From positions 1-64,000 of the IMG/VR virus record IMGVR_UViG_651053022_000007: a stretch of 64,000 bases of DNA; one strand, given 5' to 3'. Positions 40,101 to 43,100 of this stretch are shown in pieces. The position numbers are program-made. How positions within the stretch are numbered: position 1 is the stretch's first letter; each line of letters begins with the position of its first letter. This DNA comes from a virus (lineage: Duplodnaviria; Heunggongvirae; Uroviricota; Caudoviricetes).

Positions 40101-43100
40101 GCCACTATAAGTTCCCGCCCCTGTTACCGTATAACCAGCATCCAGCACTAGTTTTGTAACGTTACCGTTAAGGTCAGACACCTGAACAACCAGGTCGGAT
40201 TTTTTGAAAATACGGAAGGTATACGGAAATGATGTCGTAACGCCGTTACCTGTGTATTCGTTGTGGTCAACTTCGGTTGAGACCGTCATGTTAAATCTCC
40301 AGATAGTCGCAGCACCCGTTGCGCCGCATATCTGGTTATTCTATTACCCAAAAAACCATATATGGATAGAAAGACTGTGAATATGAATAGATATTACCTT
40401 TCAGGTAATTTGCAAAACGTGCTGGATAGCAAACAAATTATTTGCTACTGTATAAATATACAGTTATTGCATGGAGAAGATTAAGATGCAGCAGTATCAC
40501 TATCCACTGGAAGAGGGATTTACCGAAAGGATTCACACGCCGGGAGGCGTCAGGTCACTGGTGGAGGGATCGCACTTGATGAAATTACTCCGGGATCTCG
40601 ATAAGGATGGATTTAATGTCGATGGCCCACTTGCCGAACTGACTGCACTGATTAACTACGTCACCAGCTCACAGATGTCTATGCAGGATCTGCAAACACA
40701 TCTCGACTATTGTGCCGAACAATTACGAAAACAAACCAGATAAGGTTTGCAATCACCAAATGGAGTGCTTATATTTACCTTTGCGGTAAATTTACAACGC
40801 ACTCCTCTTGTGCCATAGTAATCGAGCACTGGCAAAATCCAGTGCCGGGATTGGCGTCCCGGATTACTAAAAGGCGCATTCACCGCGCAAGCGGTTTTTT
40901 TATGCGTATAGCACGGCCACATTCGTATTATGGTGGGCTGTGTGGGGGCACCGAAAGGTGCGCCGGGTCCTTTTAGCCGGTTACGCCAACCCTGCACAGT
41001 TCACCACCAACCGATTGGCGTCGGTAGTGGTGATTAACCAGACTAAAAGGTAACCACTATGACAGCTACAAAAAGCACGTCCATTTTTTCTTTCGAATCC
41101 CAAGCCGATATACGGGTAATCGTCATTAATGGTGAGCCATGGTTTATCGCTTCAGATGTTTGTCGGGCTATAGGCATAGCAAACCATCGAGATGCTGTTC
41201 GAAAACTTGATGATGATGAGAAGGGCGTCGCTTCAACCGACACCCCTGGCGGTGAGCAAGAATCGATCATCATCTCCGAGTCAGGCCTCTACACACTGAT
41301 CCTCCGCTGCCGCGACGCAGTGACACCAGGCACTATCCCCTACCGCTTTCGCAAATGGGTTACAGGTGATGTTCTTCCTCAGATCCGTCGCACCGGAAGT
41401 TACATTAAAAACTCGCTCCCGCAGGAAGAACGCATAAAGATGGTTGCCGACCAGGTAGCCAGCGCCACAGCATCAGCAGTGATGCAGGCAATGAAGGTAG
41501 AGAACAAAACCTACAGCGCCCCACTGAAGCCCGGCTACCGCAGCCTGATTCATTCGCCGTCTGGTGTTCTTGGCCTGACGGAGAACTCACTGCTGATGAA
41601 TCTGCTGAACCAGTTACAGGACGACGGGCATGACGTATCGGGCGCGGCGGCGGAGCTGACCACCATGTTCTGCTACATCGTCGGTGTGAGCAAATGCCTG
41701 CGTGATATCCAGACGCACGCGGAGTACATCAGCGACAAAGCAGGGTTCTTCTGACGGGCGGCGGCACAGGGATGTGCCTTTAAAATAATCATTGGCGATG
41801 TGATGTAGATTCGCGTAATATTACCTTAAAGGTAAAGGAGGCGCGATATGACAGCGTTGAAAAATCGTACTCAGCACAATGAACAAGCCAAGCAATGCTG
41901 GGATGTCATTGGAAAAGTTATGCTTGGTCGCGCAAGCAAAGAGCGCGACAAGGATATGGTTTACCAGACAGGAACATCTTTTAGCGACTTCAAGGCGGCA
42001 TTTCGCTCCAAATAGAAGCACATCAGGAGTTTTCCTTGAAGTTTAACATTAGAATATCTAATAGTTTTCTACATGGGGAAAGCAACACCCCTTTCGCTGT
42101 AGACGGACCTTTCCTTACTGATGATGAAATAAAAATCATACAAAGGTTTTTAGAGGATGTTGCCAATGGAAGGGCGCTTGTTGGAAAAAACAAGCCATCG
42201 TGGGTTGATGATAACCATGATAAAATTCCCGGCTCAGACAATTATGAGCAAGAGAATTATTGGCATTATCATTGTGGGCCAACATGGTATCCAAACACAT
42301 TTAAGAATTATACCATTAACTTAAATTTCAACCCTGGCGGAATGCATTCTAATGAATGCATTCATTATGCAAAAAATGATAATGAAATTGTCATTGTTGG
42401 ATTTTCAAGAGAACACATACCTTTCCTTTCATCAGATGGAAACAACAATCCGCTTTTTAATGATGAAGAAGAAGAATAAGCCCGCGCTGCGGGCTTTTTT
42501 GTGGACGAAACAAAAGTCAGTGCTACACTCATTGACGCCACATTGAGGTGGCTTATAGATGGAAATTTCACAATGAAAAAAGCATTTGCTGCACTGTTCG
42601 TTTTGTTGTCTCTGGTAGCTTCAACTCAGGCCTTTGCCGGTCGTTGTCAGCACGACAGCGATACTGCCGCTGACGGCTCCCGCTGCGGTGGGCGTTCTGC
42701 GGATTCCCGCCCGGGCGGCGGTGGCATTCGTTAAAAACAAGGCCGCGAAAGCGGCCTGTGACATGTCACGCTACATTGATATATGATTCATAAAGTAGCT
42801 TAAAGATTTACTTCCCAGAAAAGAAATTTCTTTTCCTGGATATGTCGCAATAATTGAGCATGACTTATCCCCGTTAGAGGTAACAAATCCTGAATAACCT
42901 ACTTGTTCTTTACCATTTTGTTGCTTGGCTAAAAAGTAGAGGTAGCTTATCTTTTTGCCCTCTGGGTAAAACTCTGCCAAACCAGTATCGGTGATTGAAT
43001 ATTTTATTCTCCCGCCTTGAGTAACGTTTTCCATCTCAAGTTTAGCTATGTCTTTTCTGTTGTATTCAGCATTGATTTTCCTTTCGAAATCAATGTTGTT

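What the first reader, a model, noticed from the sequence alone, without database searches (positions are those of the whole stretch)
40394..41754. Antirepressor module with a standalone copy of the Ant C-terminal domain and a terminated, structured leader
The 90-aa ORF (40471-40743) aligns to the last ~85 residues of the BRO-N antirepressor (41059-41754), sharing LMxLLxxLxxDGxxVxGxxAELT...DxQTHxxY. It could be a decoy, anti-antirepressor or second specificity module. Between the two genes an operator (40775-40789) is followed by about 100 nt containing three hairpins and an intrinsic terminator (40882-40901), well ahead of the ant ATG. That layout fits either a small RNA or an attenuated leader, loosely analogous to sar/Arc control of P22 ant.
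Basis: partly seen in the sequence, partly recalled or inferred. Interest (0 to 1): 0.7.

Follow-up and report, generated by a model that had tools for sequence, protein, structure and literature searches.

The report
Phage antirepressor locus with two switches
This stretch of an epsilon15/phiV10-like E. coli phage encodes two antirepressors built on the same repressor-binding domain, a small one switched on by DNA damage (LexA) and a larger one held in check by a P1-type c4/IsrK small-RNA lock; every part belongs to a known family and only the combination appears undescribed.

Summary
The small ORF and the C-terminus of the BRO-N antirepressor are paralogues (39% identity, E=7e-17). A terminated, hairpin-rich RNA lies between the two genes.

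The interpretation needs correcting. The small protein (85 aa, true start 40486) is not a decoy. It is about 89% identical to the Salmonella phage SPC32H antirepressor Ant (PDB 5D50_E). The cognate Rep repressor is at 29254-29838.

The "leader" is Rfam isrK (40826-40901). It is followed by a C4 antisense RNA (40926-41011), also missed. Two c4 segments pair with an upstream box and the Shine-Dalgarno sequence of ant, and with mimic copies in isrK. Across about 55 related loci all three copies co-vary, giving six specificity combinations.

The palindrome at 40775 belongs to a 17-copy TTACC-N5-GGTAA family (about 1 expected), probably Rep operators.

The system works like P1 immI or Gifsy-1 isrK grafted onto the SPC32H SOS switch. 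SPC32H itself lacks the RNA/BRO-N cassette. In E. coli relatives the cassette's N-terminal head is swapped while the Ant-like C-domain stays constant.

Verdict: known parts, a new variant in their combination, moderate interest.

The parts
29254..29838 (+). Rep, the prophage repressor and target of the antirepressors (outside the finding's coordinates)
   Evidence: Hits PDB 5D50_A 'Repressor' at E=3.5e-42 over residues 1-191. No peptidase S24 family was found. Two palindrome sites (29136, 29184) lie in the cro-rep gap.
40394..40408 (.). Palindrome O1, TTACCTTTCAGGTAA, probable Rep operator upstream of small ant
   Evidence: Half-sites are invariant and the centre variable in six phages including SPC32H. 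Present in 78 of 79 related loci.
40446..40465 (.). LexA (SOS) box TACTGTATAAATATACAGTT, 20 nt upstream of the small ant ATG
   Evidence: CTGT-N8-ACAG found. Conserved in all six aligned uetakeviruses and in 78 of 79 loci. 18 of 20 positions match the E. coli consensus as I recall it.
40486..40743 (+).
   Evidence: 5D50_E E=1.7e-47. 89% identical to SPC32H Ant. phrog_450 E=1e-47.
40747..40775 (+). Promoter-like site TTGCAA-17-TATATT, whose -10 end abuts operator O2
   Evidence: Consensus scan, coordinates checked. Function is inferred.
40775..40789 (.).
   Evidence: Half-sites conserved with five different centres. Present in 49 loci that carry the cassette.
40791..40819 (+). Promoter-like site TTTACA-17-CATAGT with a TG extension. 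It would start transcription near 40826, the first base of the isrK model
   Evidence: The -10 region is invariant in five phages. Coordinates checked.
40826..40901 (+). IsrK-type small RNA / a1-b1 leader: hairpin 1, hairpin 2 displaying b1 (UUGGCGU, 40851-40857), a1 (CUAAAAGG, 40867-40874), and an intrinsic terminator (40882-40901)
   Evidence: RF01394 77.9 bits (gathering score 50); RF03163 c4-a1b1 43.1 bits (gathering score 46.7). Terminator found. Fold z=-2.4.
40926..41011 (+). C4-type antisense RNA. a' is the loop CCUUUUAG (40969-40976); b' is the unpaired junction ACGCCAA (40983-40989)
   Evidence: RF01695 77.7 bits (gathering score 45), full length. MFE -45.6 kcal/mol, z=-4.7, with a' and b' unpaired.
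41015..41050 (+). c4 targets at the ant translation start: b2 UUGGCGU (41015-41021) and a2 CUAAAAGG (41043-41050), which contains the Shine-Dalgarno sequence
   Evidence: Direct complementarity. Three-way covariation of a1/a'/a2 and b1/b'/b2 across six allele combinations.
41059..41754 (+). Large antirepressor (231 aa): Bro-N head (residues 17-107) plus linker plus Ant-like C-domain (residues ~146-231, nt 41494-41751)
   Evidence: PF02498 E=6e-21. C-domain matches. 98% identical to ZX5 ORF4, whose overexpression lowered lysogen titres about 1000-fold (PMC9782041).
41821..41835 (.). Palindrome O3, TTACCTTAAAGGTAA, overlapping a TAATAT -10-like hexamer ahead of a 55-aa and a 147-aa gene of unknown function
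   Evidence: The genes match phrog_8607 and phrog_5954, both of unknown function.

Best explanation
The locus is the anti-immunity region of a Uetakevirus (epsilon15/phiV10-like) temperate phage. It holds two antirepressor circuits that share one repressor-binding fold.

(1) Small ant (40486-40743) is kept off by host LexA, which binds the SOS box at 40446-40465. DNA damage removes LexA. The 85-aa Ant is then made and, as shown for its 89%-identical SPC32H orthologue, binds the non-cleavable Rep and releases it from DNA, inducing the prophage.

(2) Downstream lies a P1-immI / Gifsy-1-type RNA lock: promoter(s) flanking a Rep operator, an IsrK-type terminated small RNA carrying target mimics a1/b1, a c4 RNA, then ant. 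The c4 RNA pairs through its loop a' and junction b' with b2 and with a2, which is the ant Shine-Dalgarno sequence, and so blocks translation of the 231-aa antirepressor. IsrK-type RNA carries the same two boxes and can titrate or remodel c4, which would unlock translation.

The large protein joins a swappable Bro-N 'head' to a paralogue of small Ant. I infer that it attacks the same Rep.

Shown here: the homologies, the conserved LexA box, the c4-target complementarity with its covariation, and the operator family. Shown elsewhere: the LexA/Ant/Rep mechanism in SPC32H, the c4 mechanism in P1/P7, IsrK activation in Gifsy-1, and the pro-lytic effect of ZX5 ORF4. Inferred: that TTACC-N5-GGTAA is the Rep operator, that the large Ant binds this phage's Rep through its C-domain, and that IsrK counteracts c4 here.
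For: - Small Ant: 5D50_E E=1.7e-47, 89% identical to SPC32H Ant.
- Rep: 5D50_A E=3.5e-42. Rep and small Ant occur in the same set of about 35 phage records.
- LexA box. Conserved in 78 of 79 loci, with variation only inside the N8 spacer.
- phiV10-species prophages are induced by a DNA-damaging microcin (bioRxiv 10.64898/2026.05.26.727859).
- RNAs: isrK and C4 score above Rfam gathering thresholds here and in phiV10, ZX5, Tyrion and a Klebsiella phage. They are absent from SPC32H, which also lacks the large Ant.
- c4-target pairing: six a/b allele combinations in which the isrK copy, the c4 copy and the ant-RBS copy change together. Cognate pairs give 7-8/7 contiguous Watson-Crick pairs; non-cognate pairs drop to 3-5 at one or both boxes.
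- Palindrome family: 17 sites against 1.07 expected. All 10 exact sites inside the phage are intergenic, including the cro-rep gap.
- Within E. coli uetakeviruses that share a 99.5%-identical Rep, the C-domain stays 93-98% identical while the head is replaced by four Bro-N alleles, an AntA head or an ORF6N/Rha-like head.
- Overexpressing the 98%-identical ZX5 ORF4 cut lysogens from 1e9 to 1e6 (PMC9782041).
Against: - No experiment on this phage shows LexA binding, Rep binding to the palindrome, the RNAs themselves, or large Ant-Rep contact.
- Small Ant is far more conserved (89%) than Rep (41%) between the E. coli and Salmonella phages. Sequence identity alone therefore does not prove cognate specificity.
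- The constancy of the C-domain could reflect only its linkage to the phage backbone.
- The small ORF overlapping c4 (40940-41053), the candidate icd/orf45 analogue, is not conserved. The translational-coupling step of P1 and Gifsy-1 therefore probably does not apply here.
- The sigma-70 promoter scan was not enriched over shuffles (4 found, 2.9 expected).
- Foldseek failed to recover 5D50 from the model.
Confidence: 0.75

Rival explanations
1. The large Ant does not target this phage's Rep. Its swappable head (Bro-N, AntA or Rha) recognises repressors of other, co-resident prophages, as with the trans-acting Gifsy antirepressors. The Ant-like C-domain only supplies tetramerisation.
For: The head is the variable part and is exchanged as a cassette together with its c4 allele. 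The same C-domain is found on Bro-N, AntA and pRha heads in the wider family. Cross-prophage antirepressors are documented (PMC3121763, listed).
Against: The C-domain keeps 22 columns that are invariant across the small-Ant alignment and the 5D50_E fold. ZX5 ORF4 overexpression shifted ZX5 itself towards lysis (PMC9782041). Both activities could coexist.
Confidence: 0.15
2. One paralogue antagonises the other. This is the first reader's decoy / anti-antirepressor idea, for example through mixed tetramers that cannot disassemble Rep.
For: SPC32H Ant acts as a tetramer (PMC9638917). The two proteins share the fold, so hetero-oligomers are conceivable.
Against: The small protein's orthologue is a proven inducer. 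The large protein's near-identical ZX5 copy is pro-lytic when overexpressed. Neither behaves as an inhibitor of induction. Salmonella relatives function with the small Ant alone.
Confidence: 0.07
3. The structured region is only a cis-acting attenuated leader (terminator read-through control) with no trans-acting RNA.
For: An intrinsic terminator sits 158 nt ahead of the ant ATG. Gifsy-1 ant expression does depend on read-through of the IsrK terminator (PMC4825925).
Against: Two separate Rfam RNA families match above threshold. Three-way covariation of short boxes located in different RNA segments is what trans or long-range pairing predicts. A simple attenuator does not predict it.
Confidence: 0.05
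4. TTACC-N5-GGTAA is bound by a regulator other than Rep, such as the Cro-like protein (28869-29099) or a late-gene factor. In that case the ant promoters are not under immunity-repressor control.
For: No binding data were accessible. Sites also precede structural or terminase genes (59480, 62625). Cro-type proteins often share operators with the repressor.
Against: Paired sites flank rep and cro (29136/29184, 29896/29958). The motif is conserved upstream of ant even in SPC32H, whose Rep has a similar N-terminal HTH region. P1 Ant is likewise under C1 control (PMC8201110).
Confidence: 0.2

Closest known systems
Salmonella phage SPC32H Rep-Ant-LexA switch (Kim & Ryu 2013; Kim et al. 2016; PDB 5D4Z/5D50)
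   Same: Orthologous small Ant (89% identical), an orthologous non-S24 Rep, a LexA box in the same position, the same palindrome upstream, and the same genomic slot next to the tailspike gene.
   Different: SPC32H has only the small ant. It has no isrK, no c4 and no Bro-N antirepressor. Rep is only about 41% identical.
P1/P7 immI operon (a1b1-c4-a2b2-icd-ant; Citron & Schuster 1990)
   Same: A C4-family RNA on the same strand upstream of ant. Two short boxes are complementary to targets before and after c4. The downstream target covers a ribosome-binding site. Specificity alleles exist, as in P1 versus P7. Repressor control operates as well.
   Different: The target is the ant Shine-Dalgarno sequence itself. 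There is no conserved icd-like upstream ORF in this allele. A terminator follows a1/b1, as in IsrK. The antirepressor protein and the repressor are unrelated to P1 Ant and C1.
Gifsy-1 isrK-orf45-anrP (Hershko-Shalev et al. 2016, PMC4825925)
   Same: The isrK model matches full length including the terminator. A c4-like RNA (STnc1160 in Gifsy-1) follows, and then an antirepressor gene.
   Different: No conserved orf45. No AntQ link is evident. The locus sits directly behind an SOS-controlled paralogue with no terminator in between.
APSE phages of Hamiltonella (isrK + c4 next to a Bro-N gene; PMC7313666)
   Same: The same tandem RNAs, with a'/b' matching the region upstream of an adjacent Bro-N gene.
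   Different: No Ant-like C-domain paralogue or SOS-controlled small Ant has been reported there.
P22 immI (mnt-arc-ant with sar antisense RNA)
   Same: An antirepressor region beside the tailspike gene of a podovirus. Translation of ant is held down by a small RNA.
   Different: No sar, Arc or Mnt homologues. The RNA is co-directional and acts through loop-box pairing, not as a true antisense transcript.
LexA-controlled antirepressors Tum (186), GfoA/GfhA (Gifsy), AntC (N15)
   Same: The logic is the same: a non-cleavable repressor inactivated by a small SOS-induced protein (PMC7380047).
   Different: Unrelated sequences. The family here is tiny, with 58 clusters at 50% identity among 1.84 billion representatives.

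Membership tests
SPC32H-type small antirepressor Ant (PDB 5D50 chain E) | Full-length sequence homology to the solved Ant | tested here: met
   E=1.7e-47 over residues 7-89 of the 90-aa ORF. 89% identity to SPC32H Ant.
SPC32H-type small antirepressor Ant (PDB 5D50 chain E) | LexA box at the ant promoter | tested here: met
   TACTGTATAAATATACAGTT at 40446-40465. Conserved in 78 of 79 loci. LexA binding itself was not tested.
SPC32H-type small antirepressor Ant (PDB 5D50 chain E) | Cognate non-autocleavable Rep of the 5D50_A family in the same genome | tested here: met
   29254-29838 hits 5D50_A at E=3.5e-42. No peptidase S24 hit.
SPC32H-type small antirepressor Ant (PDB 5D50 chain E) | Ant tetramer binds Rep and releases it from the operator | not testable with these tools
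   Needs biochemistry or a multimer model.
SPC32H-type Ant domain, as the C-domain of the 231-aa protein | Same fold and homology as 5D50_E | tested here: met
C4 antisense RNA (Rfam RF01695; P1/P7 c4) | Covariance-model score above the gathering threshold, full length | tested here: met
   77.7 bits against 45, model positions 1-87. Fold z=-4.7.
C4 antisense RNA (Rfam RF01695; P1/P7 c4) | a'/b' boxes complementary to a1/b1 upstream and to a2/b2 at the downstream ribosome-binding site | tested here: met
   Boxes located. Three-way covariation in six allele combinations.
C4 antisense RNA (Rfam RF01695; P1/P7 c4) | Upstream ORF (icd) whose translation is coupled to ant | tested here: not met
   The 37-aa ORF at 40940-41053 is interrupted in phiV10 and frame-shifted in Tyrion and the Klebsiella phage. 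An overlapping 168-aa ORF exists only in the L037-type cassette.
C4 antisense RNA (Rfam RF01695; P1/P7 c4) | Processing from the operon transcript by RNase P | not testable with these tools
   An ACCACCA motif is present at the 3' end. Its role is recalled from memory only.
IsrK Hfq-binding sRNA (Rfam RF01394) | Covariance-model score above the gathering threshold, with a Rho-independent terminator | tested here: met
   77.9 bits against 50. Terminator at 40882-40901.
IsrK Hfq-binding sRNA (Rfam RF01394) | Short form activates translation of the read-through mRNA through orf45 | tested here: inconclusive
   An antirepressor lies downstream, but there is no conserved orf45. The trans-activation step cannot be tested here.
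P22 immI (Mnt/Arc/sar) | sar antisense RNA and Arc/Mnt ribbon-helix-helix repressors | tested here: not met
   No sar hit at E<=1. No RHH family in neighbouring ORFs.
BRO-N antirepressors | Bro-N domain at the N-terminus | tested here: met
   PF02498 E=6.2e-21, residues 17-107.

The most novel reading that the evidence does not exclude
E. coli uetakeviruses run a two-input antirepression system. The same Rep-binding fold is used twice: once as a minimal SOS-gated protein, and once fused to an exchangeable Bro-N/AntA/Rha head behind a c4/IsrK lock. The lock's two pairing boxes recombine combinatorially (at least 4 a-alleles and 3 b-alleles, six combinations seen) among phages with otherwise near-identical Rep and small ant. 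This would mean that sibling phages with one shared repressor immunity are split into several RNA-defined 'immI' incompatibility types. Because no terminator separates small ant from isrK, SOS-driven read-through could deliver the a1/b1 mimic and unlock the second antirepressor, acting as a feed-forward amplifier.
Probability: 0.3. Interest if true: 0.55.

Novelty: new variant of a known kind. Interest (0 to 1): 0.35.

Why it matters
The locus is common: 240 of 5,426 complete E. coli genomes carry at least 80% of it. RefSeq labels it only 'hypothetical protein' and 'BRO-N domain-containing protein', with no RNA features. PHROGs lists the small-Ant family as of unknown function, and Pfam and NCBIfam have no model for it.

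Recognising the SOS box, the c4/IsrK lock and the shared Rep-binding domain gives three things:
- a testable wiring diagram for induction of phiV10-type prophages, including those in O157 and other pathogenic E. coli;
- an explanation for why ZX5 'ORF4' pushes the phage towards lysis;
- a natural set of six c4 specificity alleles on nearly identical backbones, well suited to testing RNA-based heteroimmunity.

It does not reveal a new kind of mechanism.

Tried and rejected
- My first palindrome search used the wrong spacing (N6) and found nothing. N5 is correct.
- The 37-aa ORF over c4 (annotated 'ash family protein' in ZX5) was considered as an icd/orf45 analogue. I rejected it because it is not conserved as a reading frame.
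- Whole-length RNAduplex energies were uninformative because they ignore intramolecular structure. I replaced them with box-level pairing counts.
- I first read the Klebsiella small Ant motif 'DGHDVSGAAAEL' as gene conversion from the large Ant. I rejected this because the motif is the family consensus.
- Pfam and NCBIfam have no family for the Ant domain. PADLOC gave no hit for the downstream genes.
- The search for homologous proteins with the C-domain returned mostly truncated gene calls starting at internal Met codons. It was not useful for architectures; the exhaustive HMM search was.
- The primary papers (Kim & Ryu 2013; Kim et al. 2016; the Lobocka et al. 2004 P1 genome paper) are not held. 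Their content is cited through secondary papers or marked as memory.
- I could not assign a convincing -35/-10 to the small ant promoter by eye.
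Full report
**What is there**

The window around 40.3-41.8 kb lies between a leftward tailspike gene (37827-40289) and leftward structural genes. By DNA similarity it belongs to the Uetakevirus group (epsilon15/phiV10/TL-2011b/ZX5): 94-98% identity over about 82% of the region. Those records annotate only a 'hypothetical protein', a Bro-N 'anti-repressor/anti-immunity protein' and a terminator.

**The protein observation holds**

- BLASTP of the small ORF against the 231-aa Bro-N protein gives 39% identity over 82 residues, E=7e-17, aligning to the last ~85 residues.
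- The small protein matches PDB 5D50 chain E, the antirepressor of Salmonella phage SPC32H, at E=1.7e-47. It is 89% identical to SPC32H Ant.
- The C-terminus of the large protein hits the same chain at E=1e-13.
- The cognate repressor is present at 29254-29838 (5D50_A, E=3.5e-42).
- The upstream ATG at 40471 is in frame only in this window, so the real start is 40486 and the protein is 85 aa.

A near-consensus SOS box, TACTGTATAAATATACAGTT, lies at 40446-40465, 20 nt before the ATG. It is conserved in all six aligned uetakeviruses including SPC32H and in 78 of 79 related loci. Substitutions fall only within the N8 spacer.

According to secondary accounts, SPC32H Rep is not cleaved in the SOS response. 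It is inactivated by a small LexA-controlled Ant, which acts as a tetramer on Rep (PMC7380047; PMC9638917). phiV10-species prophages are induced by a DNA-damaging microcin. The small ORF is therefore the primary SOS antirepressor. It is not a decoy.

**The structured leader is two known RNAs**

- Rfam places isrK (RF01394, 77.9 bits, gathering score 50) at 40826-40901.
- The c4-a1b1 target model scores just under threshold at 40813-40865.
- The folds agree: isrK forms two hairpins plus a terminator (z=-2.4). c4 forms a long stem with an internal hairpin loop and an unpaired junction (z=-4.7).
- The c4 loop CCUUUUAG (a') is complementary to CUAAAAGG, found at 40867 in isrK and at 41043, which is the ant Shine-Dalgarno sequence.
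- The c4 junction ACGCCAA (b') is complementary to UUGGCGU, found at 40851 (the isrK hairpin-2 loop) and at 41015.

**Comparative test of the pairing**

phiV10, ZX5, Enterobacter phage Tyrion and a Klebsiella phage all carry isrK and C4. SPC32H carries neither, and it also lacks the large Ant.

In 80 IMG/VR loci with at least 98%-identical small Ant, 44 distinct regulatory regions fall into eight groups. I found four a-alleles and three b-alleles in six combinations. In every case the isrK copy, the c4 copy and the ant-RBS copy change together. Cognate pairs give 7-8 and 7 contiguous Watson-Crick pairs; non-cognate combinations drop to 3-5 at one or both boxes.

This is the signature described for P1 versus P7 c4 heteroimmunity (PMC12197685). 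It argues against a purely cis attenuator.

The small ORF overlapping c4 is not conserved as a reading frame. This matches the remark that orf45 is conserved as nucleotide sequence but not as protein. The isrK + c4 + Bro-N arrangement has also been noted in APSE phages.

**The operator**

TTACC-N5-GGTAA occurs 17 times in the window (11 exact) against 1.07 expected. All 10 exact sites inside the phage are intergenic. They include pairs in the cro-rep gap and just after rep. Three sites lie in this locus: 40394, 40775 and 41821.

Half-sites are invariant and the centres vary between phages. At 40775 and 41821 the site begins at the last base of a -10-like hexamer. A second promoter-like site (TTTACA-17-TG-n-CATAGT, 40791-40819) would start transcription at the first base of the isrK model.

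I infer that these palindromes are Rep operators. This parallels repressor control of P1 ant. No binding data were accessible, and the generic promoter scan is not enriched over shuffles.

**Modularity of the large Ant**

Among E. coli uetakeviruses that share a 99.5%-identical Rep, the C-domain is 93-98% identical. The N-terminal head, by contrast, is one of four Bro-N alleles, an AntA domain or an ORF6N/Rha-like domain, and each head is linked to its own c4 allele.

An exhaustive HMM search found only 58 clusters of this domain in 1.84 billion representatives. Some are standalone and some are fused to Bro-N, AntA or Phage_pRha heads.

The exchanged unit is therefore [isrK-c4-head], joined inside the ORF to a resident Ant paralogue.

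The ZX5 study overexpressed the 98%-identical ORF4 and saw lysogens fall from 1e9 to 1e6. That study did not mention the small Ant, LexA or the RNAs.

**Most likely mechanism**

SOS removes LexA, small Ant is made, and Rep is inactivated. In parallel, c4 keeps the large Ant untranslated by covering its ribosome-binding site. IsrK-type RNA, which carries the same boxes, competes for c4.

Derepression of the Rep-controlled promoters would raise the mimic RNA and unlock the large Ant. So could read-through from small ant, because no terminator lies between 40743 and 40882. The last two steps are inference.

Confidence by step:
- About 0.9 for the identities of the parts.
- About 0.75 that the palindrome is the Rep operator.
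- About 0.6 that the large Ant acts on this phage's own Rep.

**Verdict**

All components are members of known families. Placing an SOS-gated Ant and an RNA-gated, head-swapping paralogue side by side, with combinatorial c4 alleles, appears undescribed in the literature I could search. I rate it a new variant of a known kind, of moderate interest.

Noticed in passing
window 1-26000 and 35830-35846: The left 24-26 kb is not uetakevirus. It holds a TraI relaxase (994-5826), a ParB-like gene, an IS transposase, an autotransporter and a lambdoid cI(S24)/cII/O-like block. The uetakevirus attP core ATTGAGTGGGAATGATT is present once and intact, with phage genes on both sides. The phage therefore does not seem to be integrated through its own att site; the context may be a cointegrate or a chimera.
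   Followed up: partly
L001 (phiV10) 3766-4445: The phiV10 large antirepressor is frameshifted inside the Ant-like C-domain. It is annotated as 194 aa plus a 29-aa ORF, and the remainder of the domain is readable in another frame. This is either a pseudogene or a sequencing error. It probably explains the '39% homology' remark in the ZX5 paper.
   Followed up: partly
L037 3573-4791 (also L039, L069): A cassette variant. Here isrK-c4 is followed by a 168-aa ORF of unknown function that overlaps by 23 nt a 244-aa antirepressor with an ORF6N/Rha-like head and the same Ant-like C-domain. The layout resembles P1 icd-ant.
   Followed up: no
window 41848-42734: Behind the third palindrome lies a block of likely accessory genes: a 55-aa ORF (phrog_8607), a 147-aa ORF (phrog_5954), a strong terminator at ~42480-42500 (which explains the weak Trp/Phe-leader Rfam hits), and a 55-aa ORF with a signal peptide (42567-42734). 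There are no Pfam or PADLOC hits.
   Followed up: partly
window 26791-62639: TTACC-N5-GGTAA sites are spread over the whole phage. Several occur as pairs 48-62 bp apart (26791/26853, 29136/29184, 29896/29958). Others lie ahead of the integrase, portal-side and terminase regions (35682, 59480, 62625). This is a dispersed regulon reminiscent of the P1 C1 operators.
   Followed up: partly
window 40339-40368: A ~30-bp element (TTCTATTACC...AACC..ATATG.AT) upstream of the tailspike start is conserved across E. coli, Salmonella, Enterobacter and Klebsiella phages. It may be a late-promoter or activator site.
   Followed up: no
window 41012-41040: The invariant GUGGUGA (about 41027-41033) is complementary to the 3' arm of c4 (UCACCAC). 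Pairing between them could form an alternative hairpin that displays b2 in its loop. This may correspond to the alternative structures A and B described for Gifsy-1.
   Followed up: no
window 40290-41760, compared with RefSeq E. coli genomes: At least 80% of the locus is present in 240 of 5,426 complete E. coli genomes, almost always on the chromosome. It is annotated only as 'hypothetical protein' and 'BRO-N domain-containing protein'.
   Followed up: yes
window 11513-11528: A second CTGT-N8-ACAG match (CTGTTTATTTATACAG) lies outside the phage, near the IS/plasmid-like region.
   Followed up: no
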